NCBI RefSeq assembly: GCF_006345805.1 | Contig: NW_021835988.1 | Coordinates: 391,142-455,141, forward strand | Direction: 5' to 3' | Length of the DNA: 64,000 nt | Source of the DNA: Octopus sinensis | Lineage: Eukaryota | Program-made: the position numbers and the translations under genes | In this document: positions 199 through 63,924 of the stretch, piece by piece | Layout of the letters: each line of letters starts with the position of its first letter | How positions within the stretch are numbered: position 1 is the stretch's first letter | The notes under the pieces: generated by a model | What the model was told of the DNA's origin: nothing | The model's database searches: none | The model's input: the letters and a program-made list of their open reading frames with translations, nothing else

Positions 199-385
199 AA
201 TCAGAATAATAGAATAGAATCAGAATAATAGAATAGGATCAGAATAATAGAATAGGATCAGAATAATAGAATAGGATCAGAATAATAGAATAGGATCAGA
301 ATAACAAAAAGATCAAAATAACAAAAAGATCAAAATAATAAAAAGATCAAAATAATAAAAAAATCAAAATAATAAAAAAATCAAA
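199..385. repeat. Minisatellite: 19-bp units (tcagaataatagaatagga) grading into ~17-bp units (tcaaaataataaaaaga), at the head of a dispersed AT-rich repeat
   Basis: Tandem units read directly; fewer units precede the same repeat at ~4910 and ~16535. Confidence 0.9.
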
Positions 386-711
386 ATAAACAATAGAATA
401 CTAGAGAGAAATAAATTTAAAAAAGTCTGTATGAATGCATGTTAATTAATTGATAAAATGAATACAAATTCACTTGTAAAATATACTTTATGCAAGATAT
501 TTTACCAGTAATCAATTTAATTAATAGTCAAACAAATAAAAAAACAAAAAAATTATAAAATAAAAACATAAAAGCACGAAAAAATAAAATAAGAATTAAC
601 TGCATACATGCACAACAAAAGAAAATAATATAACGTGCGTGATAATTTATTGTAGTTAATTCGATAAATTAAAAACATTTAAAAAATAAAATAAATAACA
701 TTTAATGTCAT
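386..711 (+). repeat. Dispersed AT-rich repeat family, copy 1 of 5
   Basis: Core ttaattaattgataaaatgaatacaaattcacttg...ccagtaatcaatttaattaata...catttaatgtca recurs at ~4905, ~16493, ~59130 and ~63466. Confidence 0.9.
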
Positions 712-4904: not shown

Positions 4905-5307
4905 AATAGAAGATCAAAATATTAGAAAAAATCAGAATAGTAGAAAAGATCCGAATATTATAAAAAAAATCAGAATAAACAATAAAATGTTAGAAAGAAA
5001 TAAATTTAAAAAAGTCTGTATAAATGCATATTAATTAATTGATAAAATGAATACAAATTCACTCGCAAAATATACTTTATACAAGATATTTTACCAGTAA
5101 TCAATTTAATTAATAGTCAAACAAATAAAAAAACGAAAATATTGTAAAAATTAAACATAAAAGCAAGAAAGAATAAAATAAGAATTAACTGCAAACATGC
5201 ACAACAAAAGAAAATAATATAACGTGCGTAATAATTTATCGTAGTTAATTCATAAATTAAAAAAAATTTAAAAATAAAAAAAATAAAATAAATAACATTT
5301 AATGTCA
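4905..5307 (+). repeat. Dispersed AT-rich repeat, copy 2
   Basis: High identity to 386-711. Confidence 0.9.
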
Positions 5308-5347: not shown

Positions 5348-8284
5348 TTAATCAGAAATTAATCGGCCAGCAAGCCGGATGGAACAGCTGTTCCCACGCA
5401 CAACGGCCAACAGGATCCTTTGGATTAGGAAAGTAAATTCCCTAGGATCCTTGGAGCGTAAAGAACAGAGGTGGCCAAGTTTCTTTAGATGATCAACTGT
5501 CTTTGTGCCAAAGACGCACGAAGTCTCAACAACAATTGGCCAAAACCAAAAGCCGTCTAACAAGCCCCGGTATTTTTCGGATTTTGTATGTTCAGCCCTA
5601 TTAGCACGGGACCCGGGCAGAGAGGCGGATTCGTTGATGGCCGACTTGGAGAAGGAATCAACACACGTGGCATCCCAAACTAGTGGTTTACCAGCGTCGA
5701 AAGCGAACAACGTCGAGCCATCAGGCCTTTTTCCATCACCACGGTCAAGACCAATTGGCTCAAGGACAGAAGGATACCCTGCCTTTTCGAGGGCATGGAG
5801 AATGATCTTGTTAAGAGCCGAATGACGAGGTATGCGACCTGCGCTTTTCTTGCAGGAAAGGGCATGGAGCCCGTATGTGTCCATCGTTGATCCACACCGG
5901 CAGGGGTGGGGATTACAAATCGGTAATCCCAGACGAAGGCATATTCCAAAACGGAGGGCATCAGAGTCGAGGCAGGTATCCAAATGGGTCGTGGGAAGGC
6001 AGTTAAGCCAGGAGCCAGAATACGGTTGGCGACTGGCACGGAAGCAAGCTAGTCTGTGCTGGTCCAAGAGACGCTCCAACGAGTCAACGTAATATTCACA
6101 AATAATTTTGTCCCATTCACGTTGGAGAGATCGTTCTGACGGTAAGACAAAATGCTTTTCCTTCCAAAGCAAGAGTGCAGAATTGATATCAGAGTCCAAA
6201 GTTGATTCGGGTGATTTTTCAAGAATCTTATGGACAAGAAGATACAATCCTGAAGAAGATGAAAGGAAAGCGGGAAGAGAAAGGTCGAGCGCGGAGCGAA
6301 GCCCCAGACCGCCAGAGGATACAGGAAGTTTGGCCTGACACCAACCAACGTCATCAAACTTGACATTAAAAATCTTCTCAGCGGAAGAACGCACCAGAGC
6401 GTCGAAAGAATCCAAGGCAATAGGAATAGAAAAGCAGCGGGAACTCCTTAGGACATAATTGATTTTCGGGATCAGAAGATAATTTTTGAGAATGAAATAA
6501 GCAGGGTGGGGATCAATATCTGCAAGTTTATCACAAAGGGAAGAAAGGGCATTCCTCTTGGAATTAAGAATACGAATGGCGGATTGGTCGTAGATCGGAG
6601 CACCCAAGATTTCGAGATCAGCAGTGGAAGTATGTCTCAGATCGGGCAAAAGGCCTCGAAACTGAGAAAAAATGTTTTGAAAACTAACACAATCGATGTT
6701 AACATTTACAATTTCAGATTTGAGAGAATTAATTTCGAGACCAATGGATGACAAAGCTGGGATTAGAGATTCCAAGTCCTTTATCAAAATATCGGGCGGA
6801 CCACCAATAGTACAATCATCCAAATACCAAATATTCAGAGGCGACAAATTCTTACGGGCAATAAAATCCACGGAAAGGGCAAATAATAACGGGCCCAAAG
6901 GATCGCCTTGCTGTACACCACAAGAAGAGGAAATAAAGGAATCACCTGCAGCCAAAAGGCTCGGGTATCCATATGAAAGAAAAACAAATGGCAGCAATGA
7001 AGGAATTCTGTCTTTACAAACCTCAAGTAGATGCTCTCTGTTGAGAGAATTGAACGCATTTTTAACATCCAATTTTAGCAGTAGCCGGGGCTTTTCAGAG
7101 AGGTGAGTCGAATCAATAAAACACCGGGATGCGTGGACCGCGGCCTCGCAACCGCCAGGCACGCCAACGCCCAACTGAATGGGCTGGAGTTCGTCACTAA
7201 TAGACGGAATTACCAGTTTGCACCCGACTTTTGCAAACAAACGGCGGAAAACATTTCCGACGGCAATAGGCCTAATGCCGCCGTCTTTTTTCTCCAATGC
7301 TGTCAGGTTCGCAGAGAAGAAAAGCAATCTAGCATGTTCAGATATATCCCCGCAGAGGAATAAGTTACATAGCTTGGTGATAGAATGTGAAAGACAGTTT
7401 CCGGCCTCGGCAGTATCGGAAATGAGATCGATTAAGTGAATGGGACGGAGACCGTCAACACCACCACTACTATTGCCTCTGAAAGATTTCAAGGCAAACA
7501 AAAGTTGCTGGACAGACGAAGAAGCTATCGAGACCCCCTCTGGAGTTTGGGCACAAAAATTAGGCACATTGCCAGTCGGGTGCTTTGAGCTGAGAATTTT
7601 GACTACATCCGGAGTAATGGTGCGGACGGAATCGGAAGATGAAAGAATGCGGACCGCAGAACCGACGTCGTGCGCCATTAAGCAGGAGTTGATACGTTTG
7701 CGTAACCGAATGGGGTTGTTTTTAGGAATGGATGAAGTTGTTTTATTGGACTTGCCCGTAAGAGAAGGCAGACTGAAAGATTCTTTCATGAACTTATTTA
7801 TATTTTCTTTGATGGAAGAGGAAAGGGATTTGTTCGAGCATGAACCTTGAGCTGGGGAAGCGAGGGCAAATACTGCAAAGCAGAACAGTCGGTTCCAATT
7901 CGGAATGGTCTGGTCACAAATGACCGACTCTATTAAAGCCGACAAGGCCTTCGCCGCAGAAAAGCGGGCAGATCTGGGAATTCTAATAGGGATACGATAA
8001 GAAGCTCGATAATTTCGAACGAGTCTTAAGACTGATTCTGGATTAAGCAGGAAGGGGTCCACGAAGCGGGAAGGACGAATGGGAACAGAGGACCCAGAAC
8101 TGATGACACGAGGAATGTATGAGGGAGGGAAAGAGGAACAAGCAGAACAGACCCAACGAGTAAGAGATGAAGCAGACTTCTTGGACAACTTGATACAAGA
8201 ACGATGGAAACTGGCGTCACAGGAGTCGCAACGGATGGTTTTCTTCCTTTTGTTACAAGTGTTACAAACGGAACAGAGAGTCAT
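5348..8284 (-). CDS. Intact CRE-like RLE non-LTR retrotransposon ORF (978 aa): N-terminal PHD finger, RT, zinc knuckle and restriction-like endonuclease
   Basis: CSVC..CDSC..FHRSC..WVCSAC (C4HC3); GGIRPIAVG, LDVKNAFN, QQGDPLGPLLF, WYLDD; CRCG..HALSC; RH, RPD, WD; no stops. Confidence 0.93.
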   Translation of the reverse strand: MTLCSVCNTCNKRKKTIRCDSCDASFHRSCIKLSKKSASSLTRWVCSACSSFPPSYIPRVISSGSSVPIRPSRFVDPFLLNPESVLRLVRNYRASYRIPIRIPRSARFSAAKALSALIESVICDQTIPNWNRLFCFAVFALASPAQGSCSNKSLSSSIKENINKFMKESFSLPSLTGKSNKTTSSIPKNNPIRLRKRINSCLMAHDVGSAVRILSSSDSVRTITPDVVKILSSKHPTGNVPNFCAQTPEGVSIASSSVQQLLFALKSFRGNSSGGVDGLRPIHLIDLISDTAEAGNCLSHSITKLCNLFLCGDISEHARLLFFSANLTALEKKDGGIRPIAVGNVFRRLFAKVGCKLVIPSISDELQPIQLGVGVPGGCEAAVHASRCFIDSTHLSEKPRLLLKLDVKNAFNSLNREHLLEVCKDRIPSLLPFVFLSYGYPSLLAAGDSFISSSCGVQQGDPLGPLLFALSVDFIARKNLSPLNIWYLDDCTIGGPPDILIKDLESLIPALSSIGLEINSLKSEIVNVNIDCVSFQNIFSQFRGLLPDLRHTSTADLEILGAPIYDQSAIRILNSKRNALSSLCDKLADIDPHPAYFILKNYLLIPKINYVLRSSRCFSIPIALDSFDALVRSSAEKIFNVKFDDVGWCQAKLPVSSGGLGLRSALDLSLPAFLSSSSGLYLLVHKILEKSPESTLDSDINSALLLWKEKHFVLPSERSLQREWDKIICEYYVDSLERLLDQHRLACFRASRQPYSGSWLNCLPTTHLDTCLDSDALRFGICLRLGLPICNPHPCRCGSTMDTYGLHALSCKKSAGRIPRHSALNKIILHALEKAGYPSVLEPIGLDRGDGKRPDGSTLFAFDAGKPLVWDATCVDSFSKSAINESASLPGSRANRAEHTKSEKYRGLLDGFWFWPIVVETSCVFGTKTVDHLKKLGHLCSLRSKDPREFTFLIQRILLAVVRGNSCSIRLAGRLISD

Positions 8285-8540
8285 CGATAAGGAAAATTAG
8301 ATTGATAAGATAATACAACGAAGAACAACAATGAATGTGACAAAATTACAATAAAATTGAATAAATTGAAAAAAATTACACCACAACAACAACCTCTTAT
8401 TGCACTCATGCTGAAAATATGATTTCGAAAATACCATTATCGAATGATACTGTTCATCGACGAATTTCTGAAATGTCAGAAAATATTAAGTGTAAGTGTT
8501 TTAATTCTTCTCGAAACGTAAATTCAGAACACTATAAGAT

Positions 8541-10100: not shown

Positions 10101-10157
10101 AAAGCATGACACACAATATGTTAGTGACAAAAAATGATTCAAAAATATTATTTAAAC

Positions 10158-12570
10158 CAGTGGTTCTCAACCTGGGGTCCGCGAGATTTTTCTTAAACTT
10201 TATTCAAATGTTTATATTTAATGATAACAATTTTAAGTTAATATATAATAGAATTAAATAATAATTAATAATATCTCTTTTAGATATATTATAAATTAAT
10301 AAATTTTAATATTCAATAATACTGAGGGGGCTAAATAAATTAATATATTTTAATATTCAATAATACTGAAGAGGCTAAATTACTTTAAAGCTGAATGTAA
10401 CGCAAGCAATCCGTTCGGCTGGGTTAATTTAGTTAACTAACAATTGTTTTGTTATTCAAATAAAAAACCTAATAAAGAAAAAAAAATGTAACTCAATTAT
10501 TTATAAAATCGTATATATATATTTTTTAGTAAAAGTTAATAAAATTTTTAAGCATTCTATTGATATGAATTCCTCGAATGTTATTAAGATACGCAAATAT
10601 AATCCTGATTATATAAAATATGGGTTTATTTGTATTGATAAAGATGGATTTGAAAGCCCAAAATGTGTTGTGTGCATGAAAATTCTGTCACACAATAGCA
10701 TGAAACCAACAACTCTTGTGAGACACTTGCGCACATGTCATCCCCATCTAATCCACAAAAATAAAGATTATTTTATTTCTTTGCGTAAAACGATGAAAAA
10801 TCAAGTATTGACTCGTTTGATACAAACTTTGCCTTCTGATAATTCGATGCTATTAGCATCTTACATGATTTCATTACGTATAGCGAAAAAAAAGAAACCT
10901 CATAATATTGCCGAAAAACTGATTCTTCCTTGTAGTAAAGACATAGTACGTACTCTTATTGCACTCATGCTGAAAATATGATTTCGAAAATACCATTATC
11001 GAATGATACTGTTCATCGACGAATTTCTGAAATGTCAGAAAATATTAAGTGTCAGGTTATTGATATTATATTATTTATTTTAACAGGTGGTAAAACAAAT
11101 AAAAACTTCATGCCATCAAAATTTCGCTATACAAGTTGATGAATCCACCGATGTAGCGAACTGTGCTCAATTAATAATATTTGCTCGTTATGTATATGAC
11201 GAAGATTTTAAAGAGGAATTTTTATTTTCCTATTCGCTTGAATCGACCACTAAAGGAGAGGATATTTTTCAAGCAATTTCTATGTTTTTTGACAGTGTTG
11301 GGTTATCTTGGAATAATGTATGTTGTTGCACAACCGATGGAGCTCCAGCAATGCTTGGCTTTCATTCTGGCTTTAGAGGCCAAGTTAGACTTGCTAACCA
11401 GGAAACGAAACATATGCATTGTATGCTACATCGATATGCACTTGCTGCAAAAACATTACCTTCAGATTTAAGATATGTTCTCGATGATGTCGTACATATC
11501 ATAAATTATATTAAAAAGAGTGGTTTAAATTCGCGGATTTTCAGACTTATCTGCGAAGAATTTGAAAAGAATGGAAAGGCTTTGTTATTCCACACTGAGG
11601 TGAGATGGCTATCTCGGGGAAACATTCTTGCCAGAGTTTTTTCTTTGAGGAATGAATTATCTGAATATTTTATTCGCGAAAACAATTCCAAATCATCGGA
11701 ATTTATTTCGAAATTAATGGATAGTTCATGGCTATCTAAACTTGCTTACTTGAGAGATGTCTTCTCTCGTATAAATTCACTCAACAAATCGCTTCAGGGA
11801 AGACGTGAAACAATAATTGATTTTTGGATAAAATTAACTTTGGTAACTGTTTCATATTAATTATTAGTGCTTGTTTGATGAAGTTAACACTGTGGAAAGA
11901 AAAAGTAAAACTAAATAATTTTACTATGTTTGAATCTTTTGAAGAACAATCTGTAAATATAGATGCATTTGAAATCAAAAAAATAACCGAACTTATTTAT
12001 GCACATTTAACATATCTTCAACAAGAAGTAAATAAATACTTTCCAGAATTGAACGAAATTGATTTGAAATTCATTCGTACACCATTCAGTGTTGATCCAC
12101 ATTTGGTCGATGAAAATATCAAAGAGGCTTTTATTGACATGATCAATAATTCAAACGCAAAAGATTTGTATGAAAAACTTGCTTTATCAAGATTTTGGTG
12201 CGAAATGTGTCAGCATTATCCTTCCGTAAGCGCAAATGCATTAAATTTGTTGCTTATATTCCCGACAACATATTTATGCGAACATGGCTTCTCAGCACTT
12301 CTCAATATAAAAAATAATCATCGCGCAAGACTGAATATTGAGGATGACATCAAGATTTGCTTGTCGACAACCGAGCCTCTTATTGAAAAAATTGCCTCGA
12401 AAGAACAATATCAACCTTCTCACTAATTTTCTCTATTGATTTAATAGTAAATTTTGTTTTTAGATAAGTAAAATTTTTTTGACAAAAAACTTAATAAATA
12501 TGTAGGGGGTCCGCGAAATTTTTCATTTACTCACAAAGGGTCCGCGGACAAAAAAGGTTGAGAACCACTG
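10158..12570 (+). mobile_element. Full-length hAT/Buster transposon; ZBED8/SCAND3-like transposase 10565-12426 with a tiny intron and frameshifts
   Basis: Perfect 16-bp TIR cagtggttctcaacct; BED finger (PKCVVC..RHLRTCH), DESTD, TDGAPAM, HCMLHR, TEVRWLSRG, TTYLCEHGFS; intron 11056-11086. Confidence 0.95.
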
Positions 12571-12960
12571 TACTAGAGGATGGCACGTTGCCCCGGATGT
12601 CAGTATGCATGTTGTTGATGATCCTATCCGTGGGGACCTTATCGAGTTGGTTGATGTAGATTATTATGTCGACTTGCCAACACTCTGTTGTAATCTAAGA
12701 CGGCTAATCCAAAGTTGACCGGGGGAGTCTTGCCCGAAGGTGAGGGTTTCTACTTCTTTGATGAGTCGAGCCACCTTGTAACAAAAATCAATGGTTGCTC
12801 AACATACCGTCATCGAATTTATGACTTCTCACATGACTATTTTGTCGTTAAGAATACGAAAGGGTGGTTTAATTGGATCCTCTCTTGGTTCGTCAACATT
12901 TATACGGTCGTCCGTATAGATGTAGTTAACAATGATGATTACCACCAAGTAGTTTTTCTT
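12571..12960 (+). other. Endogenous noda-like RNA virus fragment (protein A methyltransferase/guanylyltransferase domain)
   Basis: TRGWHVAPDV...DDPIRGDLIELVDVDYYVDLP, then after a frameshift TANPKLTGG...KINGCSTYRHRIYDFSHDY; DVDYYVD and Y-x-H-x-x-[WY]-D are noda capping-domain motifs as recalled. Confidence 0.75.
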
Positions 12961-13201
12961 AAAAAAAAGAAAAAATAAATAAAAACAAAAATATAAAGAT
13001 AAAAAAATTACAAATTTAAAAAAGTTTAAAAAAAAACAAATAAAAATTAAAAAAGAAATTACAAATTTTGAAAAATTAAAAACACCAAAAAAACAAAAAT
13101 AATTCAATAAATAAATTTAAAAAATAAAACAAAAAAATTTTGATGAAACAGGCCCTCCGCAGGAGCTAGGTCGCGGTGAGCGAAGCGAGCTGCCGAGCTA
13201 G
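12961..13201 (+). mobile_element. Helitron 3' terminal fragment
   Basis: 13139-13201 is the reverse complement of 40656-40718; ends CTAG followed by T; A-rich tract upstream. Confidence 0.85.
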
Positions 13202-13392
13202 TTTAAAATAAACCATTTTTGAACAAAAAAACATTGAAAAAAAATTTGGAAATAACGAAAAGATTTCTAACCATATTTGAGGATGAATTAAAAAGTACAA
13301 TTTTTCGGATGAATGCGTTTTTCACGTGATTCCAAACAAAACAAGAAAAATAGTTGATAGGAAAAGCGGTGAACAATTTAAGTCAAAAAATA

Positions 13393-13892
13393 TTTCATCT
13401 GTCTTACGCCTCCCCCAGCAGTCTCTTGTTTGCCGACAATGTTATTATGTCCGAAACTGGTATTCAACAAGGCGACCCTCTTGGGCCTCTTTTATTCTCA
13501 CTCGGTGCTGATCACATTGCCCGTCAATTGTCCTCTGAGGTCAACATTTGGTACCTCGATGATGTTACTCTTGGTGGGGCTTTGGAGATCGTCAAGAATG
13601 ATGTAGAAAAAATTATTTCTGGTTTTGCTTCCATTGGACTCGCTTTGAATGGATCCAATTCTGAGCTGATATGTTTGTCTGCGAGCCCTTCAGAATTCAA
13701 ACTTATTTTTTCCACCTTATCTCACCATATTGAAGACCTGTGCATCACCCAGCTTGATGACCTTATCATTCTGGGTTCTCCAATCAATAGCAAGTCTACT
13801 AGGAAGGCTTTATGTAACAGGCTCGAAGAATTGGAAACTCTATTCTCCCGCATTTCCAAACTTGAATCCCATTTAGGCCTTTTCTTGCTCAA
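13393..13892 (+). mobile_element. CRE-like RT fragment (second family)
   Basis: GIQQGDPLGPLLFSL...NIWYLDDVTLGG. Confidence 0.9.
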
Positions 13893-14156
13893 GATGCATT
13901 AAAACTCCTGATGAATTAAAGAACATTATGAACTATATTGAATATGTCGCGAGCGCGACGCGCACGCGAGCCGCACATATCGACTTTTTTAAAAGCTATT
14001 AAATGGAACAAAAAATATCAAATAACGTTAGTACCATTGAGATAATATTCCAATATATATAATATATAAAATCTATCTAATATAATTTATACGGCGTACC
14101 AGAATCATACAACATTTTTAATACCGTTGCACGCTTAGTTTCGTTTTGTTGTAACA

Positions 14157-16492: not shown

Positions 16493-16901
16493 ACCAAAAA
16501 TGCCCAATTTGAAACGTTTGAGTGTATTAAAAAAATGAGAATAGTAGAAAAGAATCAAAATAGTAAAAAAATCAAAATAAACAATAAAATACTAGAAAGA
16601 AATAAATTTAAAAAAATCTGTATGAATGCATATTAATCAATTGATAAAATGAATACAAATTCACTTGCAAAATATACTTTATGCAATATATTTTACCAGT
16701 AATCAATTTAATTAATACTCAAATAAATAAAAAAACAAAAAATTATAAAATTAAAACATAAAAGCACGAAAAAATAAAATAAGAATTAACTGCATACATG
16801 CACAACAAAATAAAATAATATAACGTGCGTAATAATTTATTGTAGTTAATTCAATAAATTAAAAACATTTAAAAAATAAAATAAATAACATTTAATATCA
16901 T
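16493..16901 (+). repeat. Dispersed AT-rich repeat, copy 3
   Basis: Includes the upstream ccaatttga..ttgagtgtattaaaaaa segment shared with copy 1. Confidence 0.9.
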
Positions 16902-18176: not shown

Positions 18177-18247
18177 TGCGCCTGCCGGGAATCGAACCCG
18201 GGTCGCTCGCATGGCAAGCGAACATGATACCTCTACACCACAGGCGC
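18177..18247 (-). tRNA. tRNA-Gly (GCC)
   Basis: GCGCCTG/CAGGCGC acceptor stem, anticodon loop TTGCCAT, GGTTCGATTCC T-arm; followed by a T6 Pol III terminator. Confidence 0.97.
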
Positions 18248-20173: not shown

Positions 20174-22106
20174 ATGGATTTAATTGAAGGAGCAAAATTT
20201 TACATAGATTTAATGCTTGAAGACGCCGGTCCCGGAATGAAGGCAATGCTATTCGATGCCAATACAGTAACAATATAAAACATAATTAAATTAGGCAAAA
20301 ATAGTAAGCTACATATATTCCCCAACGGAACTATTATACAAACAAGTATTTTTATTCGACCAATTAAAAAACCAAACTTGCGAGTCTCTATCTTTCGTAG
20401 TGGCCATAATTTTTGTGCAGCCGACCAATTCCAATTATAATTTAATCCTCAAAGAACTGTCAACCCCCCGATTTACACATTATGCAATATGTCCCCAATA
20501 TTTAAATATTTTAGATTTCTCAAGTTACTGTCCAACTGACTTTATCGAAGGGATTGCCATGGCAGATAACGACGAGAGAGTCCTGGCCCTCAGAGTATTC
20601 TTATCTGGGTTACTCCCTTAAGGAAATTTGCTTAGACTACTATGCCCATGGTCCTTGTCTCTTTACATTCAACATTGAGACATGTCATACGGTTGTAATT
20701 TAATTAATATTTAAAAATAGAATAATGGAGGTTGGAAAGGTGATTCATTTGAGCTTGTTTGTGGGGGATTAATGTCAGTGATCAATTCGTTGGGGCAAAA
20801 CCCCGAGATCCGTCATCAAGGCTCGTCCCCTCATTGTGCCAAAATATGCTATGAACTAAAAAATATGTTGGACATGCAGAACGAATCTTCTAAGGACTAT
20901 GATTCGCTGCTAGTCATAGTAGATCGGAATATAGACCCAGTGATCCCTGTCATCAATTCGGTCTCTTTAACCGAGTTCACTAGCATAGTGGACTTATGAG
21001 GCTATGATACACGAATTGGTAGGAATACACGACAATACGGTAAAATTGACACCGAAAGGCTCAAAGCAGATTGTAATAACATTAAATTCGGCGAATACAT
21101 TTTTTAAACAGGTTTTCTGGACGATATTGAACCACGTGTATAGAATCGGTTGCTTTTTTACGATGAAATTGTGTCCAACGTGTCCAGTTGTATAGAAAAG
21201 ATCAAAGGATTTAGCCAAGGCTTAACGGGGACTGAGTCATTGTCATATATGAAGGTTTTTTGGTTCAGCATGTTCAGGGATTTGTGGAAAAGTACACCAA
21301 ACAGAGGAAGTGGGTGGAAATGGTGACACAACACTCCGACCTTGTAGGCGAACTAACGAGAATAGCCACAGAAAACAGTCTGTTCGAGACTTCGCTTCTG
21401 GAACAGGACATTATTGCATCAAAATTAGATTTCTCTCAAGTTATGCAAGTATTTTTAGTTTTTTTACAATTTCTATGGCAGAAAGTTGGCAATTTGTTTG
21501 CCGATTGCCCGAATGTGACTGCCTTGGACACAATTCGACTGTCCTTGTTGTGTTTGATTAGATTTCCTGAGGCTGCCAACTATAAACTTGACATATTCAA
21601 CAAACATTTGCTCAAGCTGAACGTCTCTCCTCAAATGTATCAAATTCCGCAGTCATTTCAACGTTTTTTGAGCAAAAAGTCGAGTAATCGGACTGATGGG
21701 ACTATTTTGCGGTGGAGGGAGGCTTTGAAGAAGGCCTCCAAGTCTTATCAAAGTGACCCTGTCAATTTGTACCGACGCTACCGACCATATTTGGCTACCC
21801 TGCTTTCCGAGATTGCCGAAAACAGTCTATCACTAACTGACTTTCCAAGCTCTTTGCAATATAACCCGTTTTTTGGAAAGGATGTGAAGAAGGGAGCCCA
21901 AACTAAAGGGGGTTACTCAAAAGTTGTCGTATTTATTGTTGGAGGAGTCACCTATGCTGAGGCTGGAGTCCTGGAATCAGAAAATTGGCCTTTTCAGGTT
22001 ATTTTGGGAGGAACTCGAATTCACAATTTTGACACGTGAGTTGAGGGGTGTTATTTTATTTAGTTATTCCAAGGAGATAGTCAACATTCTTAGTTCGTCT
22101 GGATGA
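20174..22106 (+). CDS. VPS45: Vacuolar protein sorting 45 (Sec1/Munc18 family), 9 tiny GT-AG introns
   Basis: Spliced MDLIEGAKFYIDLMLEDAGPGMKAMLFDANT|AKIVS...DRNIDPVIP..|WTYEAMIHEL...VVVFIVGGVTYAEA...LGGTRIHN; introns of ~23-33 nt restore one frame. Confidence 0.93.
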
Positions 22107-22240: not shown

Positions 22241-23344
22241 TTAAACAAATTTTGAATTATAAATTCCTCTGAGGTCACTTAGAATATTTTCGAGTTGATT
22301 AAAAAACTCACATGACCCCTCATTTGATGAATAGCAGGCAGCCTTGTAAGTGTTTGATATTTGACTGCTAATGAATGTGATCATATCCTCAATCATGTTG
22401 AAGACATTTTTAAAGTCAAGGCTTTCATTGTGATGGGCCAAAACCGATTTCATATTGCACATCATTGAATTAAAATTTGCAAATTGTGCGATAATTTTTT
22501 TATGTCCTTGTTTTATTGATTTTTTCTTTTGTTTTGTGAGTTTTTTGATTTCCGTGTCCATATTTTTTAAGATTTGTGAGATCAAGACGTCATTTTTAGC
22601 GAAGGACCTTTTTCTTCTCACAACGAACTCTTGACTGAGATTAGAAGACAGTAGCGGAATCTCCTGCATTTTTTCAATATTTTTTTGAAGTGCCGTGTAC
22701 TGTTTTTTAAACTCAATTCGTATTTTATCAACAATCCTTGCTTCATTTTCTCCAAATAGAGCGAGATCTTCGGTTATTTGGACAGTTTCGAGCAGATTTT
22801 GAAGGTCGGTGGTTATCTTTTTGAAGCATTCTGTGTTTTTGATGTTAATTTTGAACAATTGTGAAGTTTCCGAACCCCATTTCTTCATGGTCAGCATACT
22901 TGAAGTTTTTGTTAACATTTTTCTAGTTTCAGTAAGTTTTTTCTCGATTGAAGATAAATATTTTTTATTTTTTTGTGCGCTTAATGAAGCTTCTGGAATG
23001 ATTTTGATAATATTTTCAAGCGATCGAATTATTTTGTCGACAATTTTTGAAAATTCAAATAAAAAATCATTTACTTCTGGTCGTTCGTCGAAATATTTAG
23101 CAAGTCCAGTATTTATTATCAAAATTATTTTTATGAAATCATCCATCGCACTCCGAATATTTAGTTTTGTCTCTTTTGGAATCAAATTTTGATTAGGGGC
23201 CGTTTCCTCGACCAATGTGTCGTATACGGTGTTGCACATGTCGTACAGTCCGTCATATATTCCGTCGTAGATTGGCTCGTTCTCTCCGTCTTCGAACATA
23301 TTTAATCTCACCATTTTTAATTTGTTTTCCAATTCTTCATCCAT
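22241..23344 (-). CDS. Intronless orphan, helical/coiled-coil 367-aa protein with an N-terminal EPIYD/YD cluster
   Basis: 1.1-kb open frame in AT-rich DNA, convergent with VPS45; no recognised family. Confidence 0.7.
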   Translation of the reverse strand: MDEELENKLKMVRLNMFEDGENEPIYDGIYDGLYDMCNTVYDTLVEETAPNQNLIPKETKLNIRSAMDDFIKIILIINTGLAKYFDERPEVNDFLFEFSKIVDKIIRSLENIIKIIPEASLSAQKNKKYLSSIEKKLTETRKMLTKTSSMLTMKKWGSETSQLFKINIKNTECFKKITTDLQNLLETVQITEDLALFGENEARIVDKIRIEFKKQYTALQKNIEKMQEIPLLSSNLSQEFVVRRKRSFAKNDVLISQILKNMDTEIKKLTKQKKKSIKQGHKKIIAQFANFNSMMCNMKSVLAHHNESLDFKNVFNMIEDMITFISSQISNTYKAACYSSNEGSCEFFNQLENILSDLRGIYNSKFV

Positions 23345-23589
23345 TGCGTAGCGCTGTGAGATGGATTTACTTACTTATAATATTAATTATAAGCTCGTAG
23401 GCAATTTAAGACATTCTAGTTACGAAAAATATTCATTTACCTTTTGGGAAAATAATTATTTTTTAGTTAACTACTATTTACAAATAAAATTATTAGCTTT
23501 CAGTCGGATCCCTTCTTTTAAGGATTTTGACGAAGGGGCCGAGGTTGTCTACTTTATGTGGTTTTTATTTTCAAGTTACTGGATCTTAA

Positions 23590-28554: not shown

Positions 28555-29010
28555 CAGTATTAGGCCGGGGAGATACCTATACATTGCGCATAGGAACAAT
28601 TTAGTCAAATTGTTCCTCATACTGACTTTTGTCCGACGTGAAAATCGCTTGCTCATCTCCTTGCGAGTACTACACCAACTTGGAGTTGGAGTCAAAGGAG
28701 CTTGCGAAGCAGTTGCACATGGAGTTTGACAATGGTTTTTAAAAATCCAGTGGAACTTGTCTTAATTTTGAAACTATATGTTCTGAGTGCTTTTAATAGC
28801 ACTAGACATGATCATCTTCTAAATATGCGTATATTCACTGTACGGACGCCATTTGTAGCTAGTATGAACACGCCTAACCTTCTTTTCTTCAGGTCATTTA
28901 ATCTATTGCTCCCCTTATTGTTCTCATCTGGAGTTGATCACATCGCCCGTAATTTATCTTCCAAACTGAACATTTGGTATTTCGATGACATCATTCTGAG
29001 TGGTATACTC
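28555..29010 (+). mobile_element. Highly degraded CRE-like RT
   Basis: QLGVGVKGACEAVAH, SAFNS, GVDHIARNLSSKLNIWYFDD. Confidence 0.75.
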
Positions 29011-29300
29011 GACGTGATCACGTTCTCGTCCTTGGTAAAAAAAGAATCTCATTTTTCTGATCAAAGTTGGGATAAGATCTGCCCAAAGACTCCTTCAAGT
29101 GGAGAAGGAGAAGCTCAGAAAATATAATCTCCTATCTAAAGAGTTGGAGCTGATAGATAAAGCAAAAATGAAGATTATAGTTAAGTGGGATTCACCTGTG
29201 ACTTCAAAGTTTATGAAGTACGAAAGATCATTATATAGGAATGACAGATTTTTGCATATATTTAGTCGTTGACTATAAAAAAACTAGAATGTATGATTGT
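29010..29300 (+). mobile_element. Degraded R4-like RLE 3' fragment
   Basis: LIKVGI..EKLRKYNLLSKELELI..KWD parallels the 45493 ORF. Confidence 0.6.
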
Positions 29301-38103: not shown

Positions 38104-38279
38104 TTGCAAATAGTAATAAGAGGATGACCGATGTGTGGTATCTGATACAAAGAATTGAATATTCTAAAAGTAAGGGAATTCACTTTTCTATTGAATTAAA
38201 AAATGAAAATACAAAATGAAACTTTGACTTTTATACCAATGTGAAGACTCATCTTCAACTGAAACAACCTTAAATCCAA

Positions 38280-39248
38280 TCTCCCGCATTTCCAAACTTG
38301 AATCCCATTTGGGACTTTTCTTGCTCAAAAACTATCTCTTTATACCGAAGCTAACTTATCTCATGCACTCATCGCCCTGCTTTCTCGAACAAAATCATTT
38401 GTCTCGTCTCGACAACATGGTCTCCAAAGCTCTTGAGCTTCTCGTAAATATTAAATTCAAACCTTCAGACATGCGACGGGTTAATTTATTTATTCGCTAC
38501 GGGGGCATCGGCATTCGTTCTTGTGTTGATTTATCCCTCCCATGTTACCTTTCCTCGTTGTCTGCTTCTGCTAGTTCCTTCAACTCTGTTCTTTTCCCCT
38601 CCCCTGAACAGCCCGAGTTGTTTAAATATACGGCGGGTGTCAACATGTGGATTTCTCGTGGGCTTAAAATCCCGGACGTCCCCTCAGTTCAAAAGAAATG
38701 GGATGATATACATTGTTCCCATGTACTTAAAGATATCCGCCTACGTGCTGACCAGTTTCAGTTGGCAAGCATTAATTGTGCCTGTCAACCCCACTCGGCC
38801 GATTGGCTTGACGCTTTGCCGATTTCCTCTGCTGGAATGTTGCTGGACGACGAATCTGTCCGCATCGGAATCTGTTTACGGCTTGGCATAGAGATTTGCC
38901 AGCCACATCAGTCCAGATGCGGAAAGGACATTGACAGGAGAGGGCTACACCCCCTCTCTTGTCGCCGGCCGTATACCCAGACATGCCGCCTTGAATGATA
39001 TTGTCAAGCGCGCGCTCTACGCCGCTGGATTCCCTTCGGTCCTGGAGCCGGTTGGGTTAGACCGTGGCGACGGAAAACGTCCCGATGGGTCCACGCTTTT
39101 CCCGTTCAAGGGGGGACTCGCTCTCGTTTGGGACGTCACCTGTGTCGACTCGTTTTCCTTGTCATCTCTCATGGACTCTGCCTCCCGCCCTGACTCTCAG
39201 CCTCCGCACATGCCGAAACGAAAAAAATCACAAAGTACGCCTCACTGG
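38280..39248 (+). mobile_element. CRE-like element fragment (thumb to RLE); its 3' tip resumes at 39493-39545
   Basis: [46 protein letters not shown]. Confidence 0.9.
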
Positions 39249-39689
39249 TTGTTTCTGTCTCTTCAAATGCTTTACCAGCATCGTACAAAGTTTCTTACAG
39301 GATTGGAAAATGTAAAAAACCAAACAATATCGGAGAAACTCTAGTTTTGCCAGCAGGTATCGATATGGTTGAAGTAATGTTTAGCGAATCCTGTGTGAAG
39401 ATATGGATTCAAAATATACATCGCATTTATACTATTGTGAGGTGACTGGCTATCTTGTGCAAAAGCGATTCGAAGAATGTTTGAACTCGAAGACTGCCTG
39501 TCTATTCGCTCGTCCTCTCAATCCAAGAATTAACGTGGATCATTTCATCAAGCAATAATTAAATTGTCATATTCTTTCTTTTCACTTTAAAAAAAAATTC
39601 GGATTTATAAAATGGACGTTAGTTCAAAAAATAACGAATGATAAGTTAATAAAGTGTAATGCTAGACCTACATTTTGCTAGTTAGTTAG

Positions 39690-40130: not shown

Positions 40131-41305
40131 AATAAGCAACATATTATTTAAAAAAAATTTTATATTTCGAAGAATAAAGTCATAATTTTATTGGAATTTT
40201 CGCATGACACATTTATATTTGACTTTAGCGTGAAAAAAGAAATGGTATGTCTCTATTTATTATTAGGAGCGTTAGTTTTTCAAACAATTGGTAATTTTAA
40301 ATTTAATGTGAAATCTATCCATAGGCTATCCATGGAAATTGAAAATTTTTTTTGATAACATCCCTGTTTGCTTTATAATTAATAACTATAGAGAAACGAT
40401 GTTCTAACGGCAAAACAAGTGATAATTTTTAGCTATATAATAGGCTCTCTCTGATGCAATTGAAATAACCGAAGTTGATAGGTCAAATAAATTAAATCAC
40501 TTGGTTATCAAAATAGAGTTCGTTTTATTATTTTTAATCTTTCAAAGTGAAGAAAACAAAATTATGGATAAAATATACACCGAGGATGAGAGTAAAGTAA
40601 TATACGTAAAATACCACAATAAAAATGTAATTAAAATTAAATTTATATAATAATACTAGCTCGGCAGCTCGCTTCGCTCACCGCGACCTAGCTCCTGCGG
40701 AGGGCCTGTTTCATCAAACAACTATAAGTTTATGTAGATGTATAAAACTACCTGGTTTAATGTAACCCTATTCTATCGCCTGTTGATAAACGATGTTTGT
40801 CGTCCGTCCTTCCTTGGCATATATGAATAAATTTTCTCTTCTGCCTACCCTCGAGCATCCCACATACAGCTGTCCATGTGAAAAGCACTCACTCTCTAAA
40901 AATAACCCAACTACCTTTAATGACTGTCCCTGGGCCTTGTTTATTGTCATTGCAAACTTTTTTTTCATTTTTGTGGTCTATTTTTTTATATTTAATTTTT
41001 TCATTTTTCCTTTGTAATTTCCTTTTTTTTCTTTTTTTATTTTTTTGTTTTTTACTGGCGGAAATGGGGCAGGGGGAGATGCGGCAGGCAAGAAAGCGAC
41101 ACACAAAAAAGATTTAATTAATTACCTTATTAAGCTGACCGTTTTTTCTTCAGCTTCGTTTTTCCTCCTTCGGTTATCTATTTAAAAAATTATTTTTGAA
41201 TAATAAAAAAGTTTAGGAAAAGAGGCATACCGAAAATAAATTCTATCTTTACGAAAAACTCAAGTAAATAGTTAATATTTTTACGCAAATTCTTCTGATT
41301 GCGCT

Positions 41306-41510
41306 GTCAATTGGTGGTAAATTGTGTTAATGGTTGTGCTAATGTGGTTTCAACTATCAAAGTGTTTTTCAAAATCTGTTAATTGCACACTCTATTCAAG
41401 GTCGTGCGTCAATTGGTGGTAAATTGTGTTAATGATTGTGCTAATGTGGTTTCAACTATCAAAGTGGTTTTTCAAAATCTGTTAATTGCACACTCTATTC
41501 AAAGTCGTGC
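41306..41510. repeat. ~102-bp tandem dimer inside the Helitron
   Basis: gtcaattggtggtaaattgtgttaat...cactctattcaa.gtcgtgc occurs twice. Confidence 0.9.
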
Positions 41511-43175: not shown

Positions 43176-44108
43176 CGTATTGCCAATTTGAAGTTGGTGT
43201 GCACACACAGACAGACAGACAGACAGACACACAGACAGACACACAGACAGACAGACAGACAGACACACACCATACCATTTTATTATTAAGATATTACACT
43301 TGTTTGGTTTGTTTGATTCAAACAATACAAATAGTATTATGAATAATACTTTGTGGTAATTCTAAATCATTCTTATTTAAGTAATCGAATATTGTTAGAA
43401 AAAGAGTTAAATTATCTTCGAAATATGAACCATCTTATAAATGACAGTAATCAAAAATTTATTTTTTCAGCAACTTTATCACTTCTTTTGAAAAGTAGAA
43501 TAACACCAACAGAAAAGCCAACAACAGTGTCCATGAAAAGTAGAATAACATCAACAGAAAAGCCATCAACAGTGTCCTTTAAAAGTCGAATAACACCAAC
43601 AGAAAAGCCATTAGATAGCACACGTCCTACTTCAAAATGTATATATTTATTATTATTTTGCAAATCGTGTTATTCCTGTTAAAAATAATTTAAATTTGAA
43701 ACCAATAAATGTGAAAAAATTTGAAATGCTGTATCTCATACCTATTTTCGTTGCACTTCTGATTATTTTGTTTATTGCCGTCATTATAGTAAGAAAAAAG
43801 AGAAAATCGGTTAAATGGAATAATTTAGAGGAGTAATTTTAAATTCAAATTTTATTAATAGAAATCCATATCATCAGGAGCCCCAAATAAATTAAAAATA
43901 TAATAATAAATTATTGATATTAACAAAGATTCTTTGGTTCTATGATTTTCATTTATTCTATAATCTTAGAAACTTAGTTTATAATTGAAAATTACGATTA
44001 ATTTCAAAATAAATTAGATTCTATTCACAATAAAAATTAAATTCAGAGGAAAACTATGGATAAAACATGCTGCAATTGCAATAGTTTTGAGAAATTTTTA
44101 GATTAGAT

Positions 44109-45294
44109 CAGGGGTCGGCAAATACTTTTGGAGAAGAGCCAATTTTGAACATTTTTGGAAATTTCGAAAAATTGAAGAGCCACCTTTTACCACTTGTCAA
44201 AAATTTAAATTCATAAAATTAAATAGACATTAATTTAAAAAATAATTAAGAATTCATTTTAAAAAATTAAATTAATCAGACGCATTAATGAGAAATGTGA
44301 TTCCTCATTTCTTTGATGAGTTGGTTAATGTCTGGGTCGTAAGTCGTTAATTTTAATCTGAGGTTAGATTCCAAATTCGAATCTGTAATTTTGTTCCTTA
44401 ATTTAGATTTTATATAATTCATATAAGAAAAACTTTGTTCACACATATAAGTGGACCCGAATATTGTCAAAATTCCGTATGCAAATTTTTTTAATTCATA
44501 ATAAGAATCTGGAAGAGAATTCAAGTTTCGAAAATCACATCTTCAAGTTTCTTTTGTATAACATTAATATCATTTTTAATTTTACCAGACAATGTTTCTG
44601 TTTCAAGGTTTCAAGTAATTCTGAAAGGCGAATAAATTTTGATGCCCATAATTCCTTGCATGTCAAGTCCAATAGCTGCATTTCGAACTCAGCTGCGTTG
44701 ATTTCAAAGTTCTTCAGAGGTTTTAATGAAACATGCCTTTATAAATTCGCCATCGGTAAATGGTTTTCCCCTTTTTGCGATCTCGTGGCTTGTCAAAAAA
44801 CTGGCAATATTTGCAGTCCTGGCATTGTGATACCAATATTTAAAAGCGGAATTCTCAATCTGATTATTCTTTGCAAGTTTTTCTACAGCTTTCTTTCGGG
44901 AATCACTAATTGGATATTTTTTTGCGAAATTTGAGTGTTTTGTGTTAAAGTGTCTCTCTAAATTTGACTTTTTATTTTGATTCAAAGTTTCCTGGCAAAT
45001 GAGACATTTCGGTAGTTGTTCTGAATTAGACGTGAATGCAAAAATTTCAGTCCATTTTGATTGAAAATGTCGCCCATTATCGATTTTTTTATTAATTTTT
45101 TTATTGCTAGTCATATATCGATGTACCACAAAAAATTAATGTTAAACGTGCAAAGATTTTTTGTTATTAACAAAACAAAAAAAATAGTTAAAAATTAAAA
45201 TCATTTATTAAAAAAATAGTTAAAAATTGAAAGAGCCTACCGTAAGATTTAAAGAGCCTTCAAAGGCTCGCGAGCCTGCTTTTGCCGACCCCTG
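44109..45294 (-). mobile_element. Internally deleted hAT (GTF2IRD2/EPM2AIP1-like)
   Basis: TIR caggggtcggcaaa; perfect TSD gattagat; BED finger PKCLIC..RHFNTKH, KPFTDGEFIK, FGSTYMCEQSFS. Confidence 0.95.
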
Positions 45295-49198: not shown

Positions 49199-51434
49199 TT
49201 ATCGATGATTAGCCTTAAATCTTCTCTTTCCACTTAACAAGTGCTTTGGTCTCAGATTAGGGACATGTCTATCTCCCTCTCCCTTCCTAGACTCCAAAGC
49301 CATTTTCCTTTGTGCACATCTCTGCATTTTAGTGACCACGCGATAGGCCGCCTCATCCTTAAGTCCACTCATATCTCGACCAGGTCTCTTGACTAATGCC
49401 CGACCCCCCTCAGCCTTCTCACCAGCACTCAAGGTCACAGCCCTTCGATTCACATTTGACGAATTCCTCAGTTTTTGAACTATAATAAATATAAATACGC
49501 TCACTATTGTGGGGTCATAGGCCTCGCTTCCTCTTCTCATTCTCTTTTCGAGACTCCTCAATTCGAGTCTGTGGAGTGCTCGTGGAGTCTTTCGTTTGAT
49601 GGTCCTCTTCACTCGTCCTTTCTGGATTAACAAATTCTTTTGTATTTTGATCCTAATTACTAATATGCCAAAATCAAACTGTTTTGCTGTGGCACGAATC
49701 TTCTTTGTGTCTTCGTCCTCACTTTCTGAACTATCATAAAACCCCGCTTTTTCCCTCAACTCCTCCTCTGTGTTGAGTTGTTCCAATCTCTACCACTCAT
49801 TCCCATCAGTAACTACCTTAAATATAAAGGGATCCACAAAATCAGCCACATTATGACCATTATAAAACTCCGGAATTACATCATACTTGTACTCCTCTGG
49901 CAAATCATAATTCTCTACAAACAATAACCACAAAACTACTTTTAAAATCAATAAAATAATCATCTCCCATTTCCCGTTCAATGTCCTTTTCTAATCGCTT
50001 AGAAGCTTCCGGTTTTATGACCTCAGGGATGTAAGGGAGTCTCAACTACAATCCATTTGTGGCATTAACCTTGTCATCACGCGGAATAGGCTCTGCCACG
50101 TGGACTCGGCTGACCAAATCAGCCCCTTTTGAGTTGATTTTGGCTTCAACTCTCATCTCCAATAATCGGTCACACGCCTCTCCCTTTACTTGTTCTATCC
50201 CCTCTCCACTAATCGTGCTCATTTGAAGGACAGTTCCCTCAAACTTGGAGATCACACTCTGATATATATTTACTATAAGGACAGTACTCTTCTTTCCTCA
50301 TCTAGTTGTTCCAATGGACACAAATCAGTCTTATTTGCACAGACTAAGACCGGCTTGCCTTGGAAAAGTGGTTTTATATTCTCGTACAGTTCAAACTACA
50401 GTTATTTAGATGTTTTACTTGCTGAGAGAGGGAATATCCACAGGACTCGGATGGGTCGATCATGTATATTACTGATGCCTTCAGGTGAGCCAAAGCAGTC
50501 ACTGCCTGCATTTCGATTGTGTTCCTTTCCTCCAATGCATGGTCCAGTATTCCCGGAGTATCAATCACCTTAATTAATTATCACATATTATTTAATTAAT
50601 TATTAATTTATAAACTAATTTTATAGTAATAAAATAATTATAGTATGGCGAACCTGCCATCTAAGATAGTTATAGTCTGTGTGGCCTACGTAAAGGGACT
50701 TGGTGGTAAAGGCATAACTCTGTACTTCTACATCAGCTCTGGTTATCTAGGAATAAATAGACATTACTCACAGTGTTAAGAAAACTGGATTTGCCCACAT
50801 TGGGGTACCCACATATGATCAAAGTCCGAGTACTGGGGTCAATTGTGGGAAGTCTACTGAGATGTTGTCTAACCTGCTCGAGGTATTCCAGAGAGGAGGA
50901 CTGTCTTCTTATAATAGTCACCATTCTACATTGATATTCCAGACACCACAACCTCCCAAGTCCCGCTCTTTTGAGTTGCTTACATCGGAAAAGAGAATCT
51001 GCGAGTTTGACAAGTCTGGTGTAGTCACGTGCAACACTGAGGTGGTGATAAAGTAAATAAACTTGTCGATTAGATTCTTTGCAGTGTTGATCTGTCCGAG
51101 TGCTAGTTTATAGTGATCTCGGTCGTATAGAATGTTCATTAGGTCTGTATAGAATGGATGTACTTCCTTTGTGTGTTATAAAATGGGTACATCGAGTTTG
51201 GGGAATTGGGAGATTATTGCTGTTAGGCGGTCGTGGAAGTTTTGTTGGGTGAATTTGATTTTACGGAGATAAAATTGACGGATTTTTGTTAGTTTTTCTC
51301 GTTTATGGACTACTGTTGGTGTTTTTCTCTGTGTTTTGGAAAGGGTAAAGTCGATAAAATTCTGTTTTATTTATTCTGCTTTATACTTTTGCTGATGGAA
51401 CTACTGTTATGCCTCGGAAGTTATAACCCACCAT
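49199..51434 (-). CDS. GTPBP4: Nucleolar GTP-binding protein 1, 12-13 introns (one of 85 nt, the rest ~23-29 nt)
   Basis: [16 protein letters not shown]|[77 protein letters not shown]. Confidence 0.96.
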
Positions 51435-59129: not shown

Positions 59130-59487
59130 AAAATAAACAATAAAATAGTAAAAAGATCGAGATAAACAAAAAATACTAAAAAGAAATAAATATAATTGGA
59201 AAAATCCATATGAATGAAGATTAATTAATCAATAAAATGAATAGACTTGCAAAATAAAATTTATCAATGATATTTTACCAGTAGTCAATTGAATTAATCT
59301 TCAAACAAATGAAAAAACAAAATATTATAAAAATAAAATATGAAAGCAAAAGAAAAAAATAAGAATTAACAACCAGAATCACACCACAAGAAAAAAATAA
59401 CGTATTTAGGACATGAGAATTTATTGTAATTAATTAGATAAATTTAGAACATTAAAAAAATTAAATCAATAACATTTAATATTGTCA
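59130..59487 (+). repeat. Dispersed AT-rich repeat, copy 4 (diverged)
   Basis: ttaattaatcaataaaatgaata...gatattttaccagtagtcaatt...catttaatattgtca. Confidence 0.8.
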
Positions 59488-59520
59488 GTCTTTTTGCGTA
59501 AACAAATCAACACATAATTA

Positions 59521-63813: not shown

Positions 63814-63924
63814 TTTGTTTGAATTCAGTTATATTATTTTTCACAATTTTTAACATTAAATTATCTTTTGAATAATTTTTTTAATTGATGGACCTTAAGA
63901 GAGTCATAGTGGACCAAAATTCGT

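What the first reader, a model, noticed from the sequence alone, without database searches (positions are those of the whole stretch)
12571..12960. Endogenous noda-like RNA virus fragment between a hAT end and a Helitron 3' end
Seen: two frames giving TRGWHVAPDV..DDPI..LVDVDYYVDLP / TANPKLTGG..INGCSTYRHRIYDFSHDY..HQVVFL. Knowledge: this motif order is the nodavirus protein A capping (MTase-GTase) domain. Positive-strand RNA virus EVEs are uncommon, and this would record a virus infecting this lineage. The hAT target site (tactagag) lies inside the viral frame. The fragment runs straight into an A-rich tract and a Helitron CTAG end, so a Helitron may have carried or amplified it (inference).
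Basis: partly seen in the sequence, partly recalled or inferred. Interest (0 to 1): 0.72.

Follow-up and report, generated by a model that had tools for sequence, protein, structure and literature searches.

The report
Broken noda-like virus relic among transposons
A broken 390-base piece of the RNA-capping gene of a nodavirus-like RNA virus lies between two transposon ends in the DNA of what is likely a parasitic animal with tiny introns, and it is likely a dead fossil of a past infection of that lineage.

Summary
The viral reading holds. 12572-12960 carries two out-of-frame, colinear pieces of the nodavirus protein A capping domain (PF19222, model 52-92 and 110-147). No shuffle of either piece reaches the real score (0 of 1000 each). 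The best identity to real noda-like viruses is 40-55%. The relic lacks the start of the domain and all of the polymerase, so it cannot work as an enzyme. It begins flush at the right end of a Buster-type hAT whose nnnTAnnn target site is viral sequence, so the transposase likely met it as DNA. The hAT's two flanks do not match, so the upstream viral part was displaced, or two hAT copies were merged in assembly. The Helitron 3' end is real: 64 nt, identical to an end behind a Helitron-type helicase remnant. Helitron carriage is not shown, and no second viral copy lies in the window. Host genes are animal-like with 24-25-nt introns, which points to a myxobolid myxozoan or a dicyemid (inferred). 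A nodavirus EVE is already published from a nematode, so this is a new member of a known kind. Junctions are unconfirmed by reads.

The parts
12572..12685 (+). Viral piece A: middle of the noda-like capping domain, with the D aligned to FHV D141 (12596-12598) and the DVDYY motif (from 12653)
   Evidence: PF19222 model 52-92, E 3.4e-5; 47 of 86 real noda-like proteins hit at E<=1e-3, best rows 43-55% identity; alignment to P0001 131-165 and P0001 to PDB 8fm9_A
12686..12699 (+). Break: the reading frame changes here, and the spacing between motifs is shorter than in relatives
   Evidence: 47 nt from the first D of DVDYY to the T of the TxxP motif, against 20-24 residues in the 56 of 57 relatives that could be measured; frames 2 and 1 in tblastn
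12700..12960 (+). Viral piece B: end of the PF19222 region and the following strand, with the Y aligned to FHV W215 (12805-12807); homology runs to the last codon before the A-rich tract
   Evidence: PF19222 model 110-147, E 2.1e-5; phmmer of 1.84 billion proteins gives P0001 at E 3.9e-6; L077 aligns to residue 89 of 89 and the 57-protein profile to the same residue
10158..12570 (+). Buster-type hAT transposon with 15-nt perfect terminal inverted repeats; BED finger, core and dimerisation regions in frameshifted pieces; a likely 31-nt GT-AG intron at 11056-11086
   Evidence: TIRs; zf-BED, DUF4371 and Dimer_Tnp_hAT, all just under cut-off; open frames meet at the GT and AG
12571..12578 (+). Right hAT flank TACTAGAG: fits nnnTAnnn and is viral-derived sequence
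   Evidence: TA at positions 4-5 occurs at 26 of 383 positions of the viral stretch
10150..10157 (+). Left hAT flank ATTTAAAC: fits nnnTAnnn but is not a duplicate of the right flank; no viral sequence upstream
12961..13138 (+). A-rich low-complexity tract that starts at the end of viral homology; a decayed A-tail or the body of a non-autonomous Helitron
   Evidence: not detectably homologous to any of 6 other A-rich tracts tested (first 140 nt of the tract)
13139..13202 (+). Helitron 3' end (CTAG at 13198-13201, followed by target T)
   Evidence: 64 nt, 100% identical in inverted orientation to 40655-40718; subterminal hairpin weak, z -0.23
40655..40960 (-). Reference copy: C-terminus of a Helitron-type (PIF1-like) helicase followed by the same 3' end; also preceded by an A-rich tract
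   Evidence: FAMTINKAQGQSL..FSHGQLYV reading (the motif's assignment to Helitron RepHel is recalled); helicase C-terminal Pfam hits E 1.6e-5 and 0.0057, below cut-off
44109..45294 (.). Internal control: another hAT-like element with an intact 8-bp target-site duplication, GATTAGAT on both sides
49199..51434 (-). Host marker: NOG1 gene, animal-like, with ultra-short GT-AG introns
   Evidence: exon 51361-51191 scores 80 bits to the human-type chain against 48-54 bits to three fungal-type chains (species labels recalled); introns of 25, 24 and 25 nt at well-anchored sites

Best explanation
The stretch 12571-12960 is a frameshifted, doubly truncated piece of a noda-like virus capping gene that likely entered the germ-line DNA of this short-intron animal as a reverse-transcribed copy, was likely cut down afterwards by a hAT transposon, and likely has no function now. 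Step 1 (shown): the sequence derives from the methyl/guanylyltransferase domain of a noda-like protein A, in plus sense. Step 2 (inferred): a host retroelement reverse transcriptase copied viral RNA1; the virus has no RT of its own, and RT-encoding elements are present in this window. The A-rich tract that begins at the last viral codon may be the decayed tail of that event. Step 3 (junction shown, order inferred): Buster-type hAT transposase joined its right end to an nnnTAnnn site inside the viral DNA. Step 4 (mismatch shown, cause inferred): the left side was replaced by recombination between two hAT copies, by alternative transposition, or by merging of two copies in assembly, so the upstream viral part is lost or lies elsewhere. 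Step 5 (inferred): a recently active Helitron left its 3' end behind the A-rich tract; on this reading it is a neighbour, not the carrier. Step 6 (break shown, neutrality inferred): the relic decayed; it has a frameshift, no start codon or promoter context, no His/Arg part of the active site and no polymerase.
For: Colinear PF19222 hits. The best of 4 hits among 1.84 billion proteins is a 977-aa capping-plus-RdRP protein. Shuffle controls 0 of 1000 for each piece. A 57-protein viral profile finds these two peptides and nothing else among 1934 six-frame peptides at E<=5. All 8 hAT-like ends found by the two TIR patterns have TA at flank positions 4-5, against 26 of 383 positions in the viral stretch; nnnTAnnn is the Buster consensus (PMC3517528, passages). 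The control hAT keeps its duplication. The hAT likely carries a 31-nt intron like the host's short introns, which ties the junction to this genome. RT domains at 5351-8296 and 13354-13899. Precedent for retroelement capture of a nodavirus RNA1: PMC5177903. Precedent for hAT-made deletions that leave unmatched flanks: PMC3744419 (passages).
Against: Each piece alone is under the Pfam cut-off. 3 of the 4 phmmer hits were repetitive non-viral proteins. The W that is invariant in 57 of 57 relatives (P0001 W219) is Y here. No retroelement sequence touches the fragment, so the RT donor is not identified. The A-rich tract is 73% A and patterned, not a clean poly(A), and the viral break falls in mid-ORF. 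No A|TC Helitron start is visible between the viral end and the CTAG (read by eye), and viral homology does not resume after the CTAG; both fit Helitron carriage as well. The junctions were not confirmed with reads. A 7% chance match of the TA site is not negligible.
Confidence: 0.6

Rival explanations
1. Helitron carriage: the viral piece sits inside a non-autonomous Helitron (5' TC ... viral DNA, A-rich tract, CTAG 3'), which moved or amplified it. The element's 5' end was later removed with the hAT rearrangement.
For: The Helitron end is real and identical to another copy, so it was recently active. No A|TC start lies between the viral end and the CTAG (by eye). Viral sequence does not resume past the CTAG, as it would after a simple insertion. 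Helitrons holding virus-like domains are reported in fungi (PMC4289320, passages).
Against: One copy in 64 kb. The other Helitron remnant is also 5'-truncated behind an A-rich tract and carries no viral DNA. The two tracts are not detectably homologous (183 of 500 shuffles as good). No 5' end can be located.
Confidence: 0.25
2. Assembly or library artefact: a viral cDNA or a contig from another organism in the sample was joined to repeats (hAT end, A-rich tract) during assembly.
For: Both edges abut repeats, and the hAT flanks do not match. Samples of parasites usually carry host tissue (general knowledge). No read-level confirmation was obtained.
Against: The junction is flush with the TIR and fits the transposase's own target rule. 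The piece has a frame-breaking lesion that a replicating virus could not carry. The flanking hAT likely has a host-type short intron. A merge of two hAT copies would misplace the left flank but leave the hAT-virus junction genuine.
Confidence: 0.1
3. The relic is functional as a template for antiviral small RNAs made from a transposon-rich locus.
For: It lies in a dense transposon cluster. EVE-derived piRNAs are known in arthropods (search listing).
Against: No expression data bear on it. The lineage's small-RNA pathways were not tested. Nothing in the sequence shows selection.
Confidence: 0.05

Closest known systems
Nodavirus protein A capping domain (Pfam PF19222 Noda_Vmethyltr; flock house virus protein A, PMC6165433, passages read)
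   Same: Motif order G-x-R..D, DVDYY, TxxP..G, GG/GC..Y.H..D is kept. Equivalents of D141 and W215 (as Y, like 55 of 57 relatives) are present.
   Different: Only about 125 codons, in two frames. The H93/R100 region lies upstream of the hAT junction and is absent. There is no polymerase, so the relic cannot cap RNA.
eBxnv-1, endogenous nodavirus-like element of the nematode Bursaphelenchus xylophilus (PMC5177903, parts 1-2 of 4 read)
   Same: A low-copy piece of nodavirus RNA1 in an invertebrate genome, associated with transposable elements.
   Different: eBxnv-1 is an intact 570-aa RdRP ORF inside a Bel/Pao LTR element, expressed and PCR-confirmed. This one is a broken capping-domain piece between a hAT end and a Helitron end, with no LTR context, no expression evidence and a different host lineage.
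Unclassified noda-like viruses from metatranscriptomes (P0001, P0005-P0009; L001-L080)
   Same: Closest sequences found: 40-42% identity over 60 aa for piece B and 43-55% over 31-40 aa for piece A.
   Different: None is close. Pieces A and B have different best matches, and DNA-level similarity is limited to 25-34 nt around the DVDYY codons. The source virus is unsampled in these collections.
Helitrons carrying virus-like domains in Pleurotus ostreatus (PMC4289320, passages read)
   Same: Virus-like sequence next to or within Helitron boundaries.
   Different: Those are retro/pararetroviral and herpes-like domains inside elements with both ends mapped. Here the sequence is from a non-retroviral positive-strand RNA virus, and only a 3' end is seen.

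Membership tests
Noda-like (Nodamuvirales-type) protein A | Similarity to PF19222 capping domain, colinear | tested here: met
   Model 52-92 and 110-147, E 3.4e-5 and 2.1e-5, each under the 30-bit cut-off; shuffles 0 of 1000
Noda-like (Nodamuvirales-type) protein A | Conserved D (FHV D141) and aromatic residue (FHV W215) | tested here: met
   D at 12596 and Y at 12805 align to P0001 D139 and Y214, which align to D141 and W215 of PDB 8fm9_A; roles from PMC6165433
Noda-like (Nodamuvirales-type) protein A | His and Arg of the capping active site (FHV H93, R100) | tested here: not met
   Near-invariant H and R (53 and 54 of 57; P0001 H89, R96; equivalence to FHV inferred from spacing) lie upstream of the first matched residue, 131; the window has hAT DNA there
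Noda-like (Nodamuvirales-type) protein A | RdRP domain downstream in the same ORF | tested here: not met
   Whole-protein profiles find no further viral peptide among 1934 six-frame peptides
Nodaviridae in the strict sense | RdRP phylogeny, bipartite genome, capsid on RNA2 | not testable with these tools
   No RdRP or capsid is present; relatives are unnamed; two relatives also hit PF19223 weakly, so the family cannot be fixed
Non-retroviral endogenous viral element | Viral sequence contiguous with host DNA | tested here: met
   In the assembly it lies on a contig with intron-bearing host genes, and a transposase target site falls in it
Non-retroviral endogenous viral element | Junctions confirmed by reads or PCR; inherited in other individuals | not tested
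   No read-level result was obtained and no second genome was available
Non-retroviral endogenous viral element | Decay incompatible with a replicating virus | tested here: met
   Frame change with shortened motif spacing; truncation at both ends
Buster-type hAT transposon (10158-12570) | Short TIRs, hAT transposase domains, nnnTAnnn target | tested here: met
   consensus from PMC3517528
Buster-type hAT transposon (10158-12570) | 8-bp target-site duplication | tested here: not met
   ATTTAAAC versus TACTAGAG; the control element at 44109-45294 has a perfect one
Helitron 3' terminus (13139-13202) | CTRR end followed by T, shared with a helicase-bearing copy | tested here: met
   features from PMC4289320
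Helitron 3' terminus (13139-13202) | Subterminal hairpin of 16-20 nt | tested here: inconclusive
   z -0.23, 80 of 200 shuffles fold as well; the centroid holds a 4-bp stem only
Helitron-captured fragment | Cargo between a mapped 5' A|TC end and the 3' end, in more than one copy | not testable with these tools
   No 5' end located, one copy in the window, no genome held

The most novel reading that the evidence does not exclude
A Helitron captured and spread a piece of a non-retroviral positive-strand RNA virus, and the relic is the first trace of a noda-like virus that infects a myxozoan or dicyemid parasite. It would then be a handle for finding a live virus of a lineage for which my searches showed none of this kind.
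Probability: 0.2. Interest if true: 0.65.

Novelty: new member of a known kind. Interest (0 to 1): 0.42.

Why it matters
If the junctions hold, a noda-like virus once reached the heritable cells of a highly reduced parasitic animal. That would extend the host range of these viruses beyond the fish, arthropod and nematode hosts named in PMC5177903. My searches (listings; passages) showed no noda-like virus or EVE from myxozoans or dicyemids; narna-like sequences from myxozoa are mentioned in PMC7010960. The piece gives motifs to screen transcriptomes for the living virus. The hAT junction makes a sharp prediction about where the missing half may lie. It shows no new mechanism, and as a 390-nt broken relic it cannot place the virus in a family.

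Tried and rejected
No whole genome was held, so copy number and the missing half could not be searched. Sequencing-run search: 3 runs listed, one study. X1 (DNA, guessed) holds 0.81 of 37 words but may be the source of the assembly, so it is not independent. X2 and X3, from the same sample, hold 0.00, which is no proof of absence. No RNA holder listed. No read or contig layout was obtained, so the junctions remain open. Piece B found nothing as a direct query in the word-indexed protein search for longer proteins (5 candidates, none at E<=1), viral contigs (4 pattern matches, 0 confirmed), metagenome contigs (192, 0 confirmed), the PDB (2 chance hits) or the ESM Atlas. Piece A was too short for the locus search. 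The Helitron end pattern had 0 matches in metagenome contigs. P0002-P0004 were dropped as repeat-driven hits. Homology of the A-rich tract to other A-rich tracts was rejected in 6 of 6 comparisons (65 to 327 of 500 shuffles as good). The looser pattern CAGGGGTG gave 4 further plus-strand sites without TA; I did not count them as hAT ends. A Mononeg_RNA_pol hit at 58094-58567 (E 2.5e-4, 19.4 bits, cut-off 27) was not followed and is treated as probable noise. The Sec1 fragment did not place the host. The automatic NOG1 intron list (10 introns, median 25 nt) is a fewest-intron solution and partly wrong; only 3 anchored introns are relied on. A second hAT intron near 11843 did not give a consistent frame and was dropped. 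No tree was built: no named reference sequences were on hand and the pieces are short. Earlier scan notes held nothing on this sequence, genome or topic.

Full report
Observation. Of 19 window peptides scanned against Pfam, the two from 12572-12709 and 12694-12975 each hit one family only, PF19222 Noda_Vmethyltr, at model positions 52-92 (E 3.4e-5) and 110-147 (E 2.1e-5). The hits are in the right order; each is under the 30-bit cut-off. phmmer of piece B against 1.84 billion proteins gave 4 hits at E<=0.001. The best, P0001 (E 3.9e-6), is a 977-aa protein with PF19222 and an RdRP domain; the other 3 are repetitive non-viral proteins. P0001 matches one PDB sequence, 8fm9_A, over both domains (that it is flock house virus protein A is recalled, and its D141 and W215 numbering fits PMC6165433). 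tblastn of P0001 on the window returns both pieces as one colinear match, residues 131-165 and 179-238, E 4.7e-12 within the window. Against a six-protein profile, 0 of 1000 shuffles of either piece reached the real score. I then fetched 80 noda-like loci (the best 80 of 177 confirmed). Piece A hits 47 of 86 real proteins and piece B 30 of 86 at E<=1e-3; this set was chosen for likeness to P0001, so it is not independent. Homology of piece B runs to its last codon at 12960. A profile of the 57 proteins of 500 aa or more with the DVDY-type motif finds these two peptides and nothing else among 1934 six-frame peptides.

State of the relic. [quoted passage not shown] The near-invariant His and Arg lie upstream of the first matched residue and are absent, and so is the polymerase. 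The frame changes between 12686 and 12699, where the motif spacing is 47 nt against 20-24 residues in 56 of 57 relatives. One W that is invariant in 57 of 57 relatives is Y here. The best identities are 40-55%, and pieces A and B prefer different relatives, so the source virus is unsampled and cannot be assigned to a family.

Left junction. A 2413-nt hAT with 15-nt perfect TIRs spans 10158-12570, and viral homology starts within two bases of its end. The right flank, TACTAGAG, has TA at positions 4-5, the Buster target consensus (PMC3517528, passages). All 8 hAT-like ends found by two TIR patterns obey this rule, while only 26 of 383 positions in the viral stretch would. I infer that the transposase acted on the viral sequence as DNA, which is the best sequence-internal argument against an RNA contaminant. 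The left flank, ATTTAAAC, is not a duplicate, whereas the element at 44109-45294 has a perfect duplication. The element is therefore a composite of two insertion sites: recombination between copies, alternative transposition (shown for maize Ac; PMC3744419, passages) or merging in assembly. The hAT likely has a 31-nt GT-AG intron, in keeping with the host's short introns.

Right junction. An A-rich tract begins at the last viral codon and leads to 64 nt that are identical to 40655-40718 on the other strand. That copy follows the C-terminus of a PIF1-like helicase (Helitron assignment of the motif recalled), and both copies end CTAG|T, as Helitrons do (PMC4289320, passages). The hairpin is weak. 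Two things favour carriage: no A|TC start is visible between the viral end and the CTAG (by eye), and viral sequence does not resume afterwards. Against it: there is one copy in the window; the other remnant is also truncated behind an A-rich tract and has no viral DNA; and the tracts show no homology beyond composition in 6 of 6 tests. I put carriage at about 0.25.

Host. A NOG1 exon scores 80 bits to the human-type PDB chain and 48-54 to three fungal-type chains (species labels recalled). Three well-anchored introns are 25, 24 and 25 nt. Among 51 animal genomes, introns this short were found only in myxobolid myxozoans and a dicyemid (PMC13644364, part 1 of 3). The host is thus likely one of these parasitic lineages; I could not tell which.

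Mechanism. Most likely a retroelement RT copied viral RNA1 in a heritable cell and the copy integrated. RT domains are present at 5351-8296 and 13354-13899, and the same route was proposed for the nematode element (PMC5177903, parts 1-2 of 4). The hAT then cut the insert, a Helitron end came to lie behind the A-rich tract, and the sequence decayed. Viral origin, the break, the flush hAT junction, the unmatched flanks and the Helitron end are shown. The RT donor, the order of events and the lack of function are inferred. I put viral origin at about 0.97, true genomic integration at about 0.88, and this whole history at about 0.6.

What is open. No genome was held and no read-level view of the junctions was obtained. 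The run search is not independent evidence.

Comparison and novelty. It works like other non-retroviral EVEs: a passive fossil. It is derived from a noda-like protein A but is not a functional member, since two defining features (the His/Arg site and the RdRP) were tested and are absent. An endogenous nodavirus is known from Bursaphelenchus (PMC5177903), and virus-like domains inside Helitrons from fungi (PMC4289320). My searches (listings only; passages of PMC11097642, PMC12548735 and PMC7010960) showed no noda-like virus or EVE from myxozoans or dicyemids, and no clear case of a Helitron carrying a non-retroviral RNA virus piece. The library lacks most subscription papers, and I did not see supplements. 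Verdict: new member of a known kind, interest 0.42.

Noticed in passing
window 49199-51434 (-); 21236-22039 (+): NOG1 and a Sec1-family gene; NOG1 has many GT-AG introns of about 24-25 nt, among the shortest known in animals.
   Followed up: partly
window 10158-12570: The hAT transposase likely carries a 31-nt host-type intron at 11056-11086. A 103-nt piece of its interior recurs at 8394-8496 with 99% identity.
   Followed up: partly
window 41720-43179: Tandem array of 15.4 copies of a 95-bp unit, 97% matches, varying mainly in T and G runs. The unit holds GTAAGT and T-rich runs; no Rfam match at gathering score.
   Followed up: partly
window 40655-41055 (-): 5'-truncated Helitron remnant, also preceded by an A-rich tract of about 100 nt; a 102-bp near-perfect tandem duplication lies upstream at 41306-41510.
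   Followed up: partly
window 5351-8296 (-): Uninterrupted 982-aa non-LTR retroelement frame with PHD finger and RT; related fragments at 13354-13902, 28642-29127 and 38228-39344.
   Followed up: no
window 374-710, 4963-5307, 16565-16900, 59153-59500, 63489-63830: Five copies of an A-rich non-coding repeat; copies at 4.9 kb and 16.5 kb follow integrase-like frames.
   Followed up: no
window 44109-45294: Short hAT-like element with a perfect GATTAGAT duplication. Unpaired hAT-like ends also lie at 1597, 4241, 17604 and 36085.
   Followed up: partly
window 22241-23374 (-): 377-aa single-frame ORF with no convincing Pfam family; the best is HopJ at E 1e-3, under cut-off.
   Followed up: no
window 58094-58567 (+): Weak Mononegavirales polymerase Pfam hit (E 2.5e-4, 19.4 bits, cut-off 27) in a frame overlapping an opposite-strand ORF; probably noise.
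   Followed up: no
window 18177-18247 (-): tRNA-Gly(GCC), the only tRNA and the only Rfam hit.
   Followed up: yes
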